A DNA stretch of 16,352 bases, from the IMG/VR virus record IMGVR_UViG_2603880150_000001. One strand, 5' to 3'. The DNA comes from a virus. Taxonomy: Duplodnaviria; Heunggongvirae; Uroviricota; Caudoviricetes. Position numbers and translations under genes: made by a program. Below, piece by piece: positions 10,289-16,352 of the stretch; position 1 is the first letter of the stretch, and the number at the start of each line of letters is the position of its first letter. Below the pieces are notes generated by a model. The model did not search any database, had not been told where the DNA came from, and saw only the letters and a list, made by a program, of their open reading frames with translations.

Positions 10289-12058
10289 ATGACCATTTCC
10301 ACAGATACAACCTTGTTGCATGACCCGCGACGGCAGGCATCGCTGCTTTACTGGCAGGGGTTTTCCGTGCCACAGATTGCCGAAATGCTGCAGGTCAAGC
10401 GCCCGACCGTGCAGAGCTGGAAGCAGCGCGACGGCTGGGACGGCATCGCGCCGATTTCCCGCGTTGAAAGCAGCCTTGAGGCCAGGCTGATTCAGCTCAT
10501 CGCCAAGCCGCAAAAGACAGGGGGTGATTTCAAAGAGATTGACCTGCTCGGACGGCAGATTGAACGGTTGGCGCGAGTCAACCGCTACAGCCAGACCGGC
10601 AACGAAGCCGACCTTAACCCCAACGTCGCCAACCGCAACAAAGGGGAGCGCAAAAAGCCGAAAAAGAATTTTTTCAGCGACGAGGCTATCGATAAACTAG
10701 AGGAATTATTTTTCGATCAGTCTTTCGAGTACCAGCTGCAGTGGTACCGCGCAGGACTGGAGCACCGTATTCGTGACATTCTCAAATCCCGCCAGATTGG
10801 CGCGACATTCTATTTCTCCCGCGAGGCACTGCTGCGCGCACTGAAAACCGGCCATAACCAGATATTTTTATCAGCCAGTAAAACGCAGGCTTACGTGTTC
10901 CGCGAATACATCATCCAGTTTGCGCGACTGGTCGACGTTGACCTGACTGGCGACCCGATTGTCATCGGTAACAACGGCGCAAAACTGATTTTTCTCGGTA
11001 CCAATTCCAACACCGCGCAGAGCCATAACGGCGATCTGTATGTCGATGAAATATTCTGGATCCCGAATTTTCAGAAACTGCGCAAAGTCGCCTCGGGCAT
11101 GGCCTCGCAAAAGCACCTGCGCTCGACCTATTTTTCGACACCTTCCACGCTGGCGCACGGCGCTTACCCCTTCTGGTCTGGCGAGCTGTTCAACAAGGGG
11201 CGCAGCCGGATTGCCGACCGCATCGAAATCGACATCAGTCACAGCGCGCTCGCCGGTGGCCAGCTCTGCGACGATGGCCAGTGGCGGCAGATTGTCACCA
11301 TTGAGGACGCCCTTGCGGGTGGCTGCACCCTGTTCGACCTCGACCAGCTCAAACGCGAAAACAGTGATGAGGACTTTAAGAACCTGTTTATGTGCGAGTT
11401 TGTCGACGATAAAGCGTCGGTATTCCCGTTCGAGGAGCTGCAGCGCTGCATGGTCGATGTGATGGAGGAATGGGAGGACTTTGCCCCGTTCGCAGACCAT
11501 CCGTTCGGCTCTCGTCCTGTCTGGATTGGCTACGACCCGTCACACACCGGCGACAGTGCCGGGTGCGTCGTGCTCGCGCCGCCGGTGGTCTCTGGTGGCA
11601 AGTTCCGCATGCTGGAGCGCCACCAGTGGAAGGGCATGGATTTTGCAGCACAGGCAGAGGGCATCCGCAAGCTGACCGAGAAATACAACGTCGAATACAT
11701 CGGCATTGACGCAACCGGCCTCGGTCTCGGCGTGTTCCAGCTGGTGCGCTCATTTTACCCGGCGGCACGCGGCATCCGTTACACACCTGAAATGAAAACC
11801 GCAATGGTACTCAAGGCGAAAGACACCATTCGCCGTGGCTGTCTGGAGTACGACGCCGGAGCAACCGACGTCACACAGTCGTTTATGTCCATCCGCAAAA
11901 CCATGACCAGCAGCGGGCGCAGCGCCACCTATGAGGCCAGCCGCACCGAGGAAGCCAGCCACGCCGATATCGCATGGGCGACCATGCACGCCCTGTTAAA
12001 CGAACCGCTTTCTGCCGGTAGCGGCATGCAGCCTAAATCTATTCTGGAGTTCAACTAA
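10289..12058 (+). CDS. P: Terminase ATPase (large) subunit gpP
   Basis: 589 aa (P2 P about 590 aa). GAGG ribosome-binding site 7 nt upstream. Divergent from O as in P2. Followed 1 nt later by the portal gene. Confidence 0.9.
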   Translation: MTISTDTTLLHDPRRQASLLYWQGFSVPQIAEMLQVKRPTVQSWKQRDGWDGIAPISRVESSLEARLIQLIAKPQKTGGDFKEIDLLGRQIERLARVNRYSQTGNEADLNPNVANRNKGERKKPKKNFFSDEAIDKLEELFFDQSFEYQLQWYRAGLEHRIRDILKSRQIGATFYFSREALLRALKTGHNQIFLSASKTQAYVFREYIIQFARLVDVDLTGDPIVIGNNGAKLIFLGTNSNTAQSHNGDLYVDEIFWIPNFQKLRKVASGMASQKHLRSTYFSTPSTLAHGAYPFWSGELFNKGRSRIADRIEIDISHSALAGGQLCDDGQWRQIVTIEDALAGGCTLFDLDQLKRENSDEDFKNLFMCEFVDDKASVFPFEELQRCMVDVMEEWEDFAPFADHPFGSRPVWIGYDPSHTGDSAGCVVLAPPVVSGGKFRMLERHQWKGMDFAAQAEGIRKLTEKYNVEYIGIDATGLGLGVFQLVRSFYPAARGIRYTPEMKTAMVLKAKDTIRRGCLEYDAGATDVTQSFMSIRKTMTSSGRSATYEASRTEEASHADIAWATMHALLNEPLSAGSGMQPKSILEFN

Positions 12059-12059
12059 A

Positions 12060-13106
12060 ATGGGTAAACAAAAATCCCGTAAAGCCAACGCACAAAAGGC
12101 CAGCAAACCACAACAACTGACCGCCAGCGCACCGCCAAAAACGACAGCGTTCACCTTCGGCGAGCCGGTGCCGGTACTCGATAAGCGCGACATTCTGGAT
12201 TACGTCGAGTGCATCAGTAACGGCAAATGGTACGAGCCGCCGGTCAGCTTCTCAGGGCTGGCAAAGAGCCTGCGCTCTGCCGTGCATCACAGCTCGCCAA
12301 TTTATGTTAAGCGTAACGTGCTCGCGAGCACCTACATTCCGCACCCGTTGTTATCCCGTCAGGATTTCAGCCGCTTTGCGCTCGATTATCTGGTGTTCGG
12401 TAACGCCTTTCTTGAGCAGCGCCACAGCGTCACCGGCCAGTTAATCAAACTGCTGGCCTCGCCAGCCAAATACACCCGACGCGGAGTCGACGATTCGATT
12501 TTCTGGTTTGTGGAAAACTTCACCCAGCCGCACGAGTTCGCGCCTGATACCGTGTTTCACCTGCTGGAGCCCGACATTAATCAGGAGATTTACGGTCTGC
12601 CGGAATATCTCAGCGCGCTTAATTCCGCTTGGCTGAATGAATCCGCGACGCTGTTCCGCCGCAAGTATTATCAGAACGGCGCGCACGCAGGCTACATCAT
12701 GTATGTGACTGACCCGGCGCAAAGTGCGACCGACGTCGAATCGCTGCGCGAGGCGATGCGTAACTCGAAGGGGCTCGGCAACTTTAAGAACCTGTTTTTC
12801 TACGCCCCCGGCGGAAAACCGGACGGCATCAAAATCGTGCCACTGAGCGAGGTCGCCACAAAGGATGACTTTTTCAACATTAAGAAAGCCAGCGCCGCCG
12901 ACCTGATGGACGCGCACCGCGTGCCGTTCCAGCTCATGGGCGGCAAGCCCGAGAATATCGGTTCACTCGGTGACGTTGAGAAGGTGGCAAAGGTATTTGT
13001 GCGTAATGAGCTGTCACCCCTGCAGGATAGGTTCAGGGAGGTAAACGACTGGCTCGGTATGGAGGTCATCAGGTTCAAAGAGTACACACTCGACAACCCG
13101 GAATAA
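12060..13106 (+). CDS. Q: Portal (capsid vertex) protein gpQ
   Basis: 348 aa (P2 Q about 344 aa). Immediately downstream of P in the same orientation. Followed by a terminator hairpin. Confidence 0.9.
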   Translation: MGKQKSRKANAQKASKPQQLTASAPPKTTAFTFGEPVPVLDKRDILDYVECISNGKWYEPPVSFSGLAKSLRSAVHHSSPIYVKRNVLASTYIPHPLLSRQDFSRFALDYLVFGNAFLEQRHSVTGQLIKLLASPAKYTRRGVDDSIFWFVENFTQPHEFAPDTVFHLLEPDINQEIYGLPEYLSALNSAWLNESATLFRRKYYQNGAHAGYIMYVTDPAQSATDVESLREAMRNSKGLGNFKNLFFYAPGGKPDGIKIVPLSEVATKDDFFNIKKASAADLMDAHRVPFQLMGGKPENIGSLGDVEKVAKVFVRNELSPLQDRFREVNDWLGMEVIRFKEYTLDNPE

Positions 13107-13115
13107 TCACCTTTT

Positions 13116-13140
13116 AAGCCGCCATTTTGGCGGCTTTTGC
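13116..13140 (+). terminator. Hairpin terminator after Q, possibly bidirectional
   Basis: Perfect 8-bp inverted repeat AAGCCGCC/GGCGGCTT with a 5-nt loop, followed by TTTTGC on the plus strand. Lies between the convergent Q and DUF2188 genes. Confidence 0.5.
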
Positions 13141-13144
13141 TATG

Positions 13145-13369
13145 TTAGCCCTTAGACTTTTTAGGATCATCTTTTCTCTGATAAGTGCGTTCTTCCTGAA
13201 TTTTCCCATCTTCCTTGTGAATTTTGACCGAGCCTGTTTTGTTCGACATAAACTCAGATGTTGTTTTAATCAGCTCGGCCTTTGTGGGCGCGGTCTTGCT
13301 AGGGCGGTCATTGCCCTCTTTTTGCAACTTCCACTTATCGCCATCTTTTGTAATATGATAGTTATCCAT
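13145..13369 (-). CDS. Small DUF2188-like protein of unknown function
   Basis: Start at internal Met (MDNYHITKDGDKWKLQKEG...), preceded by a GGAGG ribosome-binding site. 74 aa with the pattern 'H...DG.W.vkkEG....s..f.TKaE.i....e.....g...IH..DGkIq....y...DP' that I recall for the DUF2188 family. Lysine-rich C-terminus. Confidence 0.55.
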   Translation of the reverse strand: MDNYHITKDGDKWKLQKEGNDRPSKTAPTKAELIKTTSEFMSNKTGSVKIHKEDGKIQEERTYQRKDDPKKSKG

Positions 13370-13573
13370 TAAAGCCTCCAACTGTTGTGGGGAACATAAA
13401 GTCTCAATATGGATATTAGCCAAAGCGAAACCGTAAAATTGTGCAACTGATCCCATCCTTTAGCACCACGCCACAGACGCACCACGCGCCCACGATCACA
13501 CCCGGCCACTACAGCGCCGTCACGACGTTCTCAGACGATAATTTTTAATAATACGCACCACCGCTGGCGCGCA

Positions 13574-13592
13574 ATGCTTTCCCCGCCACGCC
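13574..13592. other. Putative cos site (19-nt cohesive-end sequence, 186 type)
   Basis: The reverse complement of 13574-13592 reads GGCGTGGCGGGGAAAGCAT, which matches the cohesive-end sequence I recall for phage 186 (P2: GGCGAGGCGGGGAAAGCAC). Location downstream of portal gene Q is consistent with P2-family genome organisation. Sequence identity is from memory, not a search. Confidence 0.55.
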
Positions 13593-13737
13593 TGCCCGCT
13601 TTATGGGTCGGTTTTAATGCAGTTGCATGACCTCGCTTTAGCTAAGCTACTACCGGTACTCCTTATGTTTTGGCGGTTGGATCAACGCATGCAAAAAAAT
13701 GCAGTGGCATGCACACATTCATTACATCTTATTTATC

Positions 13738-14448
13738 TTATCGAACCCTTTTTTCCAGATTGAGTAGGGCTTTTTTGCATTTTTTTTGATTAATAAACGT
13801 TCTATCCAGTATCTTTATATGAAACATCATTACTCTATTGAAGCAAATAAACATTTCTCGGGCATCCTGGCCAACAATCAGAAACGACTCGCCATTAATA
13901 TTTGGAATGTTGCTATTCTTCGATAAATCATCAAATGCCTCAGAGCCACGTTCATTTCTATACATTTCTTTAATAGCCATTACTTCATCGTGGCGAACGA
14001 TATTAATCCAAATTAATTTATCTACAGTCAACAATTGCCCATACTCTAAGAAAAATACTCCCTTGGCTAACCAGGTGCCGTATTGGTAAATCTCCCTACC
14101 ATTTAGGGGTAATGTTATCTGCGCACCTTTTTTTGTATGCCTAACACTCTGGAATGCTTCACGAAATTTCGAGTCTTTTCTTTTAAGCGCATTATGGAAT
14201 TTATTAACAGCATCAAAGCTGCCTGTTGAGTGCTCTCCTACCATGCGGCAAATGACACCTAACACCTCGTCAATTCGGCTTTTATCGCCATTGCACTTTT
14301 TGCATACATAGAAATCACCTTCGCCGTTGGTTCTATGAATGGAGACTGAAACTTGCGGAATCATGTGTTCAACTGAGCGGCAGTGGGGGTGATTTTCAAC
14401 CTTATTCATGAGAACACCGCAATAAACGCAGTGTGTGCTTGGTTTCAT
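13738..14448 (-). CDS. HNH nuclease-domain protein with uncharacterised C-terminal domain (candidate accessory/defence gene)
   Basis: 236 aa from the Met with the best ribosome-binding site (AAGGG, 8-nt spacer); in-frame alternatives at 14454 and 14529. N-terminus carries a zinc-finger HNH signature: C-V-Y-C ... H-P-H-C ... V-E-H-M-I-P ... N ... C-K-K-C-N-G-D-K. C-terminal ~150 aa unrecognised. Gene is AT-rich (counted 60-nt samples 28% and 42% G+C, against ~60% in the terminase region). Confidence 0.6.
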   Translation of the reverse strand: MKPSTHCVYCGVLMNKVENHPHCRSVEHMIPQVSVSIHRTNGEGDFYVCKKCNGDKSRIDEVLGVICRMVGEHSTGSFDAVNKFHNALKRKDSKFREAFQSVRHTKKGAQITLPLNGREIYQYGTWLAKGVFFLEYGQLLTVDKLIWINIVRHDEVMAIKEMYRNERGSEAFDDLSKNSNIPNINGESFLIVGQDAREMFICFNRVMMFHIKILDRTFINQKKCKKALLNLEKRVR

Positions 14449-14544
14449 ATACATTGCCCTTACAATGTCTAATGACGAATGAGTAGCACTAAAATAACAC
14501 AAATCTGATGGTGGGATGTCAGCCCCCATGCTTTAGATTGGACA

Positions 14545-14574
14545 TACGAAAACCGGCTTTAATAGTGCCGGTTT
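14545..14574 (-). terminator. Rho-independent terminator (minus strand)
   Basis: Minus-strand RNA reads AAACCGGC-ACUAUUAAA-GCCGGUUUU: an 8-bp stem with a 9-nt loop followed by a U-run. Lies downstream of the small ORF and repeat copy A, and upstream of the HNH gene. Confidence 0.5.
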
Positions 14575-14595
14575 GGGCCAATCTCTACGGAACAG

Positions 14596-14666
14596 ACTAA
14601 CCCCTAGAGGGACTCGTTGTTCAACCCTCCAGTACCGAAAGCAAGTTTCAGCGCCGACGGCGTTCG
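14596..14666 (-). repeat. Repeat copy A (~70 nt) abutting the stop codon of the 69-aa ORF
   Basis: Aligns with 14999-15069 at roughly 80% identity. The core 'caaccc.ccag.ac.gaaagcaag.ttcagc.ccgacggcgtt.g' is shared. Minus-strand RNA can form a hairpin (12 of 14 pairs including G-U). Confidence 0.6.
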
Positions 14667-14876
14667 CTATCTTCGACATGGTGGTGGCGCATATTGTGTC
14701 GGCCTGCTGATATCGTTCAGCTTATCGTAGTTATCCCTGACTATTTCTGCACACCCGACCAATTCCGCTGGCGTCAGGTTCTCATTGACCATTATCGTCT
14801 GCAAGCGATGAACGATAGCCATCAGTTTTATGCTTTTAGTTTTGTGCTGCGGAATTTCGCCCGGTAGTCGATGCAT
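14667..14876 (-). CDS. Hypothetical small protein (69 aa)
   Basis: ORF with a GAGGG ribosome-binding site 9 nt upstream of the ATG. No recognisable motif. AT-rich cargo context. A second in-frame Met at codon 19 is an alternative start. Confidence 0.4.
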   Translation of the reverse strand: MHRLPGEIPQHKTKSIKLMAIVHRLQTIMVNENLTPAELVGCAEIVRDNYDKLNDISRPTQYAPPPCRR

Positions 14877-14998
14877 ATTATCGCCCTCAATGAATTTTAT
14901 TCAGTGCTGTCAAAGCGCCACTATAAAATCCTCTAAGGTAACGTCCCATTAATCACCGGTGTGTAACCAATAAAACATCGAGAAAGTTTGAAAGGTAG

Positions 14999-15069
14999 AA
15001 CTAACGCCTCTCGGAGCCAGTTTCAACCCCGCCAGCACTGAAAGCAAGATTCAGCACCGACGGCGTTTG
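14999..15069 (-). repeat. Repeat copy B (~70 nt) abutting the stop codon of the DinI-like gene
   Basis: Aligns with 14596-14666. Minus-strand RNA forms a 14-bp stem (CCGUCGGUGCUGAA / UUCAGUGCUGGCGG, 4 G-U pairs) with a 7-nt loop. On the plus strand the wobble pairs become A-C mismatches, so the fold is specific to the minus strand. Confidence 0.6.
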
Positions 15070-15303
15070 TTAATGCAGCCAGCTATCGTCCTCCCATACC
15101 TGCTGCATGATTTCCATTACTCGTTTTTTATCTTCGTCCAGTTTCAAACCGCTTAACTCAACGCCATTAGCTGAGCCCTTACGAATGCGGATAGCAGTCT
15201 TTGGGTAAATAGGTTGAAGATTGCGGTACAGCTCAGCCTCAAGTGCATCCAACGTTGCCTGACTAATTTTTTGCTCTTTATCCAACGTGATATTGATTCT
15301 CAT
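15070..15303 (-). CDS. DinI-like protein
   Basis: 77 aa. Alignable with E. coli DinI as recalled: 'MRI..T..K.......A.DAL..EL.R......P........R......LS........DK.R..EI.Q..WE....W'. Similar length (DinI 81 aa). Confidence 0.75.
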   Translation of the reverse strand: MRINITLDKEQKISQATLDALEAELYRNLQPIYPKTAIRIRKGSANGVELSGLKLDEDKKRVMEIMQQVWEDDSWLH

Positions 15304-15363
15304 AATCTAATCAGCCTTATAAAAATTATCATCTTCGGTTTCGTTATTTTCGCTGTTTGCTAG

Positions 15364-16352
<989 letters not shown>

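What the first reader, a model, noticed from the sequence alone, without database searches (positions are those of the whole stretch)
13593..15363. Cos-proximal cargo island with abrupt compositional shift
After portal gene Q and the putative cos, the sequence switches from GC-rich structural genes to AT-rich DNA. The island carries three non-structural genes on the minus strand (HNH protein, 69-aa ORF, DinI-like), a repeated RNA element and an IS5 insertion. The cos-proximal position corresponds to the variable tin/old region of P2, which I recall being described as a hotspot for anti-phage systems. The island continues beyond the window, so the full module is not visible.
Basis: partly seen in the sequence, partly recalled or inferred. 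Interest (0 to 1): 0.75.

Follow-up and report, generated by a model that had tools for sequence, protein, structure and literature searches.

The report
Prophage cargo slots flanking cos
This is the known variable "hotspot" next to the DNA-packaging site of a 186/P2-type prophage: it holds two uncharacterised AT-rich cargo genes, a piece of the phage's own SOS-induction operon broken by an IS5 element, and two copies of a conserved structured element that no RNA database lists.

Summary
G+C falls from 0.57 in the structural genes to 0.44 across 13107-15363. The three minus-strand genes, the repeat and the IS5 end are all present.

The locus is the published A-Q (cos-proximal) diversity hotspot of P2-like phages, syntenic with P2 tin/old. 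But the DinI-like gene (tumB) and the 69-aa ORF (PSP3 gp37 homologue) are backbone genes of the 186/PSP3 SOS operon, not cargo.

The swappable cargo is two cassettes flanking cos:
- a 236-aa HNH nuclease with a novel C-terminal domain (13738-14448);

IS5 sits in a CTAG inside the antirepressor gene tumA, so little or no cargo lies beyond the window.

The "repeated RNA element" is the most interesting part. It is a ~75-nt element found widely in enterobacterial P2-like phages. It has a 17-bp hairpin with strong covariation (13 of 17 pairs compensatory), a near-invariant tail and strand-specific G·U pairs. It has no Rfam match, and variable DNA begins immediately after it.

The functions of the HNH protein and of the element are inferred, not shown.

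The parts
12060..13106 (+). Portal gene Q, the conserved boundary of the region.
   Evidence: Pfam Phage_portal. 98.4-98.7% identical to relatives up to 13135-13138.
13112..13139 (.). G+C-rich hairpin (AAGCCGCC-ATTTT-GGCGGCTT) with T/A runs on both sides. Probable bidirectional terminator between the convergent Q and DUF2188 genes.
   Evidence: Read from the sequence. Homology with relatives that carry other cargo ends at 13135-13138.
13139..13559 (.). Variable slot L, between the Q terminator and the cos flank.
   Evidence: Replaced by a 1.3-kb nSTAND1 NTPase segment in L004 and by two other genes in L003; identical content in L005.
13145..13456 (-). DUF2188 cargo gene (103-aa ORF; the conserved part is residues 30-101).
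   Evidence: Pfam DUF2188 4e-18. PADLOC candidate PDC-S16 1.4e-14. phrog_3220. G+C 0.413.
13560..13722 (.). Conserved cos region. The 19-nt cohesive end lies at 13574-13592. The right-hand flank carries TGCATGC/GCATT motifs.
   Evidence: Termini of the 186 and PSP3 records map to 13592/13593. 17 of 19 match to P2 cosR. Alignment of five relatives.
13738..14448 (-). HNH-nuclease cargo gene of 236 aa. The ORF stays open up to 14529. Met28 is preferred as the start because phrog_31193 and all family members begin there and the first CxxC lies just downstream.
   Evidence: phrog_31193 9e-172. Conserved CxxC..N..EH..P..CxxCN..K..D motif. 10 of 30 relatives hit Pfam HNH_5 and 19 of 30 hit PADLOC PtuB. 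G+C 0.39.
14449..14546 (-). 5' region of the HNH cassette. Putative own promoter (TGTTATTTT, an extended -10-like motif) and a ribosome-binding site AAGGG 8 nt before the ATG.
   Evidence: This region travels with the ORF at 85% identity in L003: homology runs 13738-14575. The promoter call is a consensus reading only.
14547..14575 (-). t95b-like intrinsic terminator (ACCGGC-loop-GCCGGTTTT) that ends the SOS operon.
   Evidence: Homologous to the annotated t95b of phage 186. The same hairpin lies at a fixed ~23 nt after the element in 45 of 157 contexts, against 0 of 157 control windows.
14588..14668 (-). Structured element, copy B. It lies after the 69-aa gene. Its hairpin is degraded and most of its tail is kept.
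   Evidence: Covariance model R1: 71.5 bits, E 1e-16. Fold z-score +0.21.
14667..14876 (-). 69-aa gene, homologue of PSP3 gp37. Backbone gene of unknown function.
   Evidence: 88% identical to PSP3 gp37. phrog_11386 2e-46. 34 phage records in two genera.
14992..15071 (-). Structured element, copy A. It lies after tumB. Its hairpin is intact and its tail is variant.
   Evidence: R1: 83.7 bits, E 9e-20. -35.9 kcal/mol, z -3.85.
15070..15303 (-). tumB, the DinI-like second gene of the PSP3-type SOS operon.
   Evidence: Pfam DinI 7e-24. phrog_189. PSP3 annotates the homologue as tumB.
15307..15363 (-). 3' remnant of tumA: the last 18 codons plus the stop codon.
   Evidence: Identical to intact tumA of Ecol_545 and PSP3 up to the CTAG.
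15364..16352 (+). IS5 left end and transposase; it runs off the window.
   Evidence: GGAAGGTGCGAACAAG terminus directly after CTAG. Pfam DDE_Tnp_1 4e-34 and DUF772 3.5e-21.

Best explanation
The stretch 13107-15363 is the cos-flanking A-Q variable region of a 186/PSP3-type (Eganvirus) P2-like prophage. It is a composite of backbone and cargo.

Backbone. This is the distal part of the LexA-controlled SOS-induction operon: tumA (cut by IS5), tumB (DinI-like) and gp37. tumB and gp37 are each followed by a conserved structured element. The operon is closed by a t95b-like terminator.

Cargo. Two AT-rich single-gene cassettes sit on either side of cos. One is an HNH nuclease with a novel C-terminal alpha/beta domain, between the terminator and cos. 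The other is a DUF2188 protein, between cos and the Q terminator.

Inferred mechanism:
- The cassettes are exchanged by recombination between short conserved anchors. These are the element or t95b, the ~160-nt cos region, and the Q terminator.
- The cassettes travel with the phage.
- They are expressed from their own promoters in the lysogen and are possibly silenced by H-NS.
- They act in inter-virus competition.
- The HNH protein most likely cleaves incoming nucleic acid, with its C-terminal domain acting as sensor or regulator.
- The element acts as sense-strand RNA in the 3' part of the operon transcript, controlling stability, processing or read-through. It also marks the upstream edge of the variable DNA.

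Shown here: the synteny, the breakpoints, cargo replacement among relatives, conservation of the HNH motif, and covariation and strand bias of the element. Inferred: anti-phage function, promoter use, the RNA-level role and the recombination mechanism.
For: Synteny and annotation of PSP3, 186, P2 and E. coli relatives.

Breakpoints at 13135-13138, 13560-13567, 13631-13638 (homology resumes in a conserved TGCATGC motif block ending ~13722) and 14543-14597.

The hotspot is published. This exact gene order is listed there as 'hypothetical + DinI + hypothetical + hypothetical + DUF2188'.

Composition. Low-G+C cargo in a P2-like remnant is bound and silenced by H-NS (bioRxiv 10.64898/2026.09.05.749240).

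HNH family:
- It is small: 28 clusters among 5.8 billion sequences and 83 representatives among 1.84 billion.
- Every member whose context was examined lies in a variable slot of a P2/186/HP1-like prophage. In L081/L082 it sits in a degraded locus with only a faint portal remnant.
- Close relatives sit next to cos. Distant ones sit next to tail-fibre genes or the integrase.
- Catalytic residues are invariant.

Element:
- 94.8% of cells paired against 80.2% in shuffles (0 of 500 shuffles as high).
- 145 double-change cells against 41.6 expected.
- Slid controls reach at most 47% paired.
- 72 G·U cells against 12 A·C cells.
- Sense strand folds at -37 kcal/mol (z -3.7); antisense at -23.1 (z +0.36).
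Against: No experiment links this HNH family or DUF2188 to phage resistance.

The window's HNH protein itself passes no Pfam or NCBIfam threshold. Its PtuB hits are weak (7e-5).

No promoter for the HNH gene was found by the consensus scan on the minus strand.

In the K. oxytoca relative L093 the HNH gene starts 24 nt after the element with no terminator between them. Independent expression is therefore not general.

Both element copies in the window are degraded relative to consensus (71-84 bits against ~100).

Canonical P2 lacks the element.

RNA and displaced single-stranded DNA cannot be told apart from sequence alone.
Confidence: 0.75

Rival explanations
1. The whole island, including the DinI-like gene and the 69-aa ORF, is horizontally acquired anti-phage cargo.
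For: All four genes have low G+C and GC3. All are non-structural.
Against: tumB is annotated and conserved as part of the tum SOS operon in PSP3, SEN1, SW9 and 186, where it forms the C-terminal half of Tum. gp37 homologues occur in 34 phage records of both genera. Homology to relatives with different cargo is continuous across 14597-15364.
Confidence: 0.1
2. The HNH gene is a free-standing homing or selfish endonuclease that spreads by cutting HNH-less phage genomes near cos. It is not a defence gene.
For: An N-terminal HNH plus a C-terminal uncharacterised domain resembles free-standing phage HNH homing enzymes (established knowledge). The distribution is sporadic: 7 of 5426 E. coli genomes and 1 of 50697 phage records. 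The cassette junction lies exactly at the stop codon.
Against: Distant family members sit in three different variable slots of P2/HP1-like prophages rather than at one cognate target. The slot is shared with many unrelated cargo genes. No intron, intein or conserved target gene is interrupted.
Confidence: 0.15
3. The HNH protein is a packaging accessory that helps terminase cut cos, as gp74 does in HK97.
For: The gene lies within ~150 bp of cos in this window and in its close relatives.
Against: 186, PSP3, P2 and most relatives package without it. Distant homologues lie far from cos. The gene is rare.
Confidence: 0.04
4. The conserved element works as single-stranded DNA, as a priming or primosome-assembly (ssi) signal on the strand displaced during A-protein rolling-circle replication. 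It does not work as RNA.
For: The hairpin is strand-specific and tolerates G·T pairs. It lies ~1.8 kb downstream of the annotated ori in the direction of A transcription. Rolling-circle replicons need a lagging-strand start (established knowledge).
Against: It always lies just after a stop codon, within 12 nt in the three gene families found. In 29% of contexts it lies at a fixed 23 nt before an intrinsic terminator. That placement fits a transcript feature. Canonical P2 replicates without it. Which strand is displaced was not established here.
Confidence: 0.2
5. The repeat is only leftover homology from a duplication and has no function.
For: Only two copies are present, ~400 nt apart, and both are degraded in this window.
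Against: 135 distinct copies were found in more than 120 viral contigs. Their hairpin sequences have diverged but remain complementary, and the tail is invariant.
Confidence: 0.03

Closest known systems
P2-like gpA-gpQ (cos-proximal, tin/old) hotspot described by Rousset et al. 2022 (PMC9122126)
   Same: Same position between the replication gene and the portal gene, next to cos. AT-rich. Content differs among near-identical prophages. This gene order is already in their Table S5A.
   Different: The published locus is treated as one interval. Here it resolves into two separate slots on either side of cos plus a conserved SOS-operon segment. The cargo genes here are untested 'hypothetical' entries.
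SOS operon of coliphage 186 (p95-tum-t95a-orf97-t95b) and tumA/tumB of PSP3
   Same: tumB, the t95b-like terminator and the element between the last gene and t95b are homologous. An intact relative has a perfect LexA box upstream of tumA.
   Different: tumA is disrupted by IS5, and the promoter lies outside the window. orf97 is absent. gp37 and an extra element copy are present, as in PSP3.
PtuB, the HNH nuclease of the Septu defence system
   Same: Similar length. The HNH motif sits in the N-terminal half. 19 of 30 family members hit PtuB models, best 1e-8.
   Different: No PtuA ATPase is adjacent in any locus examined. Similarity is confined to the ~60-residue HNH core. The C-terminal domain is unrelated to any solved structure.
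Lambda sib and HK022 put: cis-acting hairpin RNAs that control mRNA decay or terminator read-through. This comparison is from memory and was not tested.
   Same: A transcript-borne hairpin element placed after a regulatory gene and before a terminator or downstream genes.
   Different: No sequence or Rfam relationship. The function is untested. This element carries a ~30-nt invariant tail.

Membership tests
P2-like A-Q diversity/defence hotspot | Lies between replication gene A and portal gene Q, adjacent to cos. | tested here: met
   Q and cos are in the window. A is not in the window, but it lies directly beyond tumA in intact relatives: 93.7% identity over 12000-15364 and 94.6% over 13000-15364.
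P2-like A-Q diversity/defence hotspot | Content varies among otherwise near-identical prophages. | tested here: met
   L003, L004, L005, PSP3 and 186 carry different DNA in 13139-13559 and/or 13632-14596.
P2-like A-Q diversity/defence hotspot | Cargo confers anti-phage activity. | not testable with these tools
   Indirect support only: the PADLOC candidate PDC-S16 for DUF2188 and PtuB-like HNH hits.
186/PSP3 SOS (tum) operon | LexA-repressed promoter upstream of tum. | tested here: not met
   There is no LexA box in 13600-15363, because the promoter is separated from these genes by IS5. The intact relative has TACTGTATAAATATACAGTA.
186/PSP3 SOS (tum) operon | Intact antirepressor gene (tum or tumA). 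| tested here: not met
   Only the last 18 codons of tumA remain next to IS5.
186/PSP3 SOS (tum) operon | DinI-like tumB and the terminal terminator t95b. | tested here: met
HNH (beta-beta-alpha-Me) endonuclease superfamily | Two CxxC zinc-binding pairs and the catalytic His and Asn residues. | tested here: met
   C7, C10, N19, E27-H28, C49, C52-N53, K56 and D60 are invariant or nearly so in 30 sequences down to 20% identity.
HNH (beta-beta-alpha-Me) endonuclease superfamily | Passes a curated family threshold. | tested here: inconclusive
Septu (PtuA + PtuB) | An adjacent PtuA ABC/AAA ATPase. | tested here: not met
   No ATPase gene in the window or in loci L002, L003, L090, L093 or L096.
IS5 | Terminal repeat GGAAGGTGCGAA..., a CTAG-type target, and a DDE_Tnp_1 transposase. 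| tested here: met
   The target duplication cannot be checked because the other end lies outside the window.
Any Rfam 15 family (for the repeated element) | Covariance-model match. | tested here: not met
   Nothing relevant at E<=1 in the window. Nothing at E<=10 on the consensus-like 186 copy.
Integron attC site (considered for the element) | R''/R' core sites, an integron integrase, and cassette arrays with one site per cassette. | tested here: not met
   At most two copies per locus. The element follows only three backbone gene families. No integrase lies nearby.

The most novel reading that the evidence does not exclude
The ~75-nt element is an undescribed cis-acting structured RNA of enterobacterial P2/186-like phages. 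It consists of a covarying 17-bp hairpin closed by AAC/GUU, followed by the invariant tail GAACAACGAG-N4-9-GGCGUUAG. It sits exactly where conserved phage DNA gives way to swappable cargo. It could control decay, processing or terminator read-through of the SOS or early transcript into whatever cargo lies downstream, while also acting as the recombination anchor for cassette exchange. Separately, the HNH protein with a START-like C-terminal domain could be a new single-gene anti-phage nuclease family confined to P2-type prophage hotspots.
Probability: 0.35. Interest if true: 0.7.

Novelty: new member of a known kind. Interest (0 to 1): 0.5.

Why it matters
The hotspot itself is already published, so the island adds one more catalogued arrangement.

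Three things would matter if confirmed:
- The HNH family is rare, compact and restricted to prophage variable slots, which makes it a cheap candidate for a new single-protein defence.
- The hotspot resolves into two slots bounded by short conserved anchors. This gives a concrete, testable route for the rapid cargo swapping whose mechanism the 2026 NAR study leaves open.
- The structured element has strong covariation, is common in enterobacterial P2-like phages and has no Rfam entry. It could explain how transcription from the phage's SOS or early operon is insulated from, or extended into, arbitrary cargo.

Tried and rejected
- HNH homologous to 186 Orf97, which occupies the same position and blocks 186 infection: rejected, BLASTP E 0.72.
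- Profile search of PDB sequences: nothing below E 0.17.
- Element as a cassette-punctuating, attC-like site: rejected. There are one or two copies per locus, and only after orf97, tumB or gp37.
- Three-way-junction and pseudoknot models of the element: not supported. The first alignment (A1) had an invariant 3' arm and no covariation, and one structure string was mis-registered. Only the long hairpin gained support once divergent copies were added.
- Chi-like GCTGGCGG in the 186-type 3' arm: not conserved in divergent copies, so dropped.
- Element as coding sequence: the variation has no period-3 pattern and there are 1-nt indels in the loop.
- Antisense targets of the tail within the window: none above chance.
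- Literature: Odegrip 2006 and Christie & Calendar 2016 are not held. A full-text search for the element's sequence found nothing.
- DUF2188 and HNH as an obligate pair: rejected. Each occurs without the other. A P4-hotspot arrangement 'AAA_21 + DUF2188 + HNH' does exist in Rousset's table.
Full report
**What the window is.** The window is a 186/PSP3-type P2-like prophage. It encodes tail-fibre assembly and tail-fibre genes, baseplate proteins I and J, and small terminase M. It also encodes capsid N, scaffold O, large terminase P and portal Q. The best phage matches for 13000-15400 are Salmonella phage PSP3, SEN1, SW9 and coliphage 186, all Eganvirus. Four complete E. coli genomes carry the whole stretch at 94.6% identity.

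**Check of the observation.**
- Composition: G+C averages 0.573 (sd 0.032, minimum 0.504) in 500-nt windows of the structural genes. It is at or below 0.486 (minimum 0.352) in every window of 13107-15363.
- Codon position 3: GC3 falls from 0.62-0.74 to 0.40-0.53.
- Genes, repeat and IS5: the three minus-strand ORFs, the direct repeat and the IS5 end are all present.
- cos: the 19-nt cohesive end is at 13574-13592. It matches P2 cosR at 17 of 19 positions, and the termini of the 186 and PSP3 records map to 13592/13593.

**Backbone versus cargo.**

PSP3 is annotated A-tumA-tumB-gp37-gp38-cos. Phage 186 is annotated p95 (LexA)-tum-t95a-orf97-t95b-cos, and orf97 is noted there to block 186 infection when expressed from a plasmid.

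The window's DinI-like gene is tumB. Its 69-aa ORF is 88% identical to PSP3 gp37, and gp37 homologues occur in 34 phage records of both Eganvirus and Peduovirus. These two genes are therefore backbone.

BLASTN against six relatives gives sharp breakpoints. Conserved DNA runs through Q to 13135-13138. It resumes at 13560-13567 around cos, with conserved motifs up to about 13722. It resumes again at 14543 (against 186) or 14597 (against the others) and continues to 15364. Two variable slots therefore flank cos.
- Slot L (13139-13559) holds a DUF2188 gene here. It holds an nSTAND1 NTPase in L004 and two other genes in L003.
- Slot R (about 13723-14546) holds the HNH cassette here. It holds gp38 in PSP3, a small ORF in L005, and HNH plus a Ser/Thr kinase in L003. 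It is almost empty in 186.

In canonical P2 the same interval, from the orf91 stop to cosR, holds tin and old.

The locus is the published gpA-gpQ hotspot (PMC9122126; PMC13586616). This gene order appears in Rousset's Table S5A as 'hypothetical + DinI + hypothetical + hypothetical + DUF2188'. It is catalogued but uncharacterised.

**IS5.** Alignment with intact tumA of E. coli Ecol_545 and PSP3 shows identity up to a CTAG, after which the IS5 terminus begins. Only 18 codons of the 60-codon tumA remain. In the intact relative, a perfect LexA box (TACTGTATAAATATACAGTA) lies between A and tumA. No such box lies in the island. The SOS promoter and most of the antirepressor gene are thus separated from tumB and gp37. 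Hardly any room is left for further cargo between IS5 and gene A.

**The HNH protein.**
- Database matches: Pfam and NCBIfam give nothing for the window protein. PHROGs gives phrog_31193 over residues 28-263. PADLOC gives weak PtuB hits.
- Family size: 28 clusters among 5.8 billion sequences and 83 representatives among 1.84 billion. Full-length members are 220-250 aa.
- Motif: an alignment down to 20% identity keeps CxxC, N19, E27-H28, P31, C49, C52-N53, K56 and D60. This is the HNH zinc and catalytic motif.
- Relatives: 10 of 30 hit Pfam HNH_5 and 19 of 30 hit PtuB models.
- Start codon: the conserved first CxxC argues for the start at 14448, not the shorter RefSeq call.
- Rarity: the gene occurs in 7 of 5426 complete E. 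coli genomes and 1 of 50697 phage records.
- Context: every member whose context was examined lies in a variable slot of a P2/186/HP1-like prophage. Most are next to cos in Klebsiella and E. coli. One is in a degraded locus with only a faint portal remnant. One distant relative lies beside tail-fibre genes, and another lies between the repressor region and the integrase.
- Partners: no ATPase partner is ever adjacent, so this is not Septu.
- Reading: this placement favours accessory or defence cargo over a packaging role. It weakens but does not exclude a homing enzyme.
- Expression: in the window the gene follows a t95b-like terminator and probably has its own promoter, since the upstream 127 nt travel with it in L003. 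In K. oxytoca it starts 24 nt after the element with no terminator.

**DUF2188.** The gene matches Pfam DUF2188 and the PADLOC candidate PDC-S16. DUF2188 proteins have been predicted, but not shown, to take part in defence (bioRxiv 10.1101/2022.04.27.489752). DUF2188 and the HNH gene each occur without the other.

**The repeated element.**

The two window copies belong to a family found in 186, PSP3, Wphi and many other phages.

A first set retrieved by the hairpin's 3' arm showed 97.8% pairing in the hairpin but no compensatory change. A second set was retrieved by the tail alone (GTTGAACAACGAG-N4-9-GGCGTTAG). It gave more than 120 viral contigs and 135 distinct copies.

Forty-five representatives below 87% identity in the hairpin half give the following:
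- a 17-bp hairpin closed by AAC/GUU, in which 13 of 17 pairs show compensatory double changes;
- 94.8% of cells paired, against 80.2% in shuffles (0 of 500 as high);
- 145 double-change cells, against 41.6 expected (0 of 500);
- slid controls at or below 47% paired.

G·U cells outnumber A·C cells 72 to 12. The sense strand of the 186 copy folds at -37 kcal/mol (z -3.7), against -23.1 (z +0.36) for the antisense strand. The structure therefore belongs to the strand that is sense to the operon.

The tail was fixed by the second search. It was also nearly invariant in the first, independent set, in 34 of 37 sequences.

The element follows only orf97-like, tumB or gp37-like genes. It occurs once per locus, or twice when gp37 is present. 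It is followed at a fixed ~23 nt by a t95b-type terminator in 45 of 157 contexts, against 0 of 157 control windows. Unrelated sequence begins right after its GTTAG.

It has no Rfam match, either in the window or on the consensus-like 186 copy. It is absent from canonical P2. Among one genome per species it was found mainly in Enterobacterales.

I read it as a cis-acting RNA of the operon's 3' region. It also serves as the left-hand homology anchor of slot R. A single-stranded-DNA role in rolling-circle replication is the main rival. Both window copies score below typical copies (71.5 and 83.7 bits against ~100).

**Verdict.** The island is real and correctly placed, but it is a member of a known kind. 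The untested items worth follow-up are the HNH family and, above all, the structured boundary element.

Noticed in passing
15307-15400, and beyond the window: IS5 is inserted at a CTAG inside the antirepressor gene tumA. This cuts tumB and gp37 off from the LexA-controlled promoter. The prophage is probably no longer SOS-inducible.
   Followed up: partly
46-1793: The tail-fibre assembly gene and the tail-fibre gene have lower G+C (0.49-0.51; windows down to 0.42) than the other structural genes. This looks like a second mosaic, host-range segment.
   Followed up: no
L093 5896-6001 (K. oxytoca contig): In this relative the HNH gene starts 24 nt after the structured element with no terminator. 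There it is probably co-transcribed with the tum/orf97 SOS operon, unlike in the window.
   Followed up: partly
L080 2797-3177 (phage Wphi): The Wphi counterpart of gp37 is split between annotated gp92 and an unannotated 48-aa ORF. This suggests a frameshift or a sequencing error in that record.
   Followed up: no
L084 and L086 (genome contigs): Exact matches to the element's 24-nt core occur in an Acidobacteriota MAG contig and a Thermoanaerobacterium assembly. This host range is implausible and may reflect contamination.
   Followed up: no
13690-13722, and the cos flank in relatives: The motif TGCATGC-N-TGCATT-T(n)-GCATGCGT and a second ATGCAACTGCATTAAAACC block are conserved on the right side of cos in the relatives aligned. 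They may be terminase or cosB-type sites or a weak terminator.
   Followed up: no
Rousset 2022 Table S1-type list: P4-satellite hotspots contain 'AAA_21 + DUF2188 + HNH' arrangements. DUF2188 therefore recurs next to Septu-like HNH nucleases elsewhere.
   Followed up: no
L090 4039-5207 (Klebsiella contig): An IS3-family element (HTH_Tnp_1 plus rve) lies in the same hotspot between tum and the HNH gene. This is a second case of an IS insertion in this operon.
   Followed up: no
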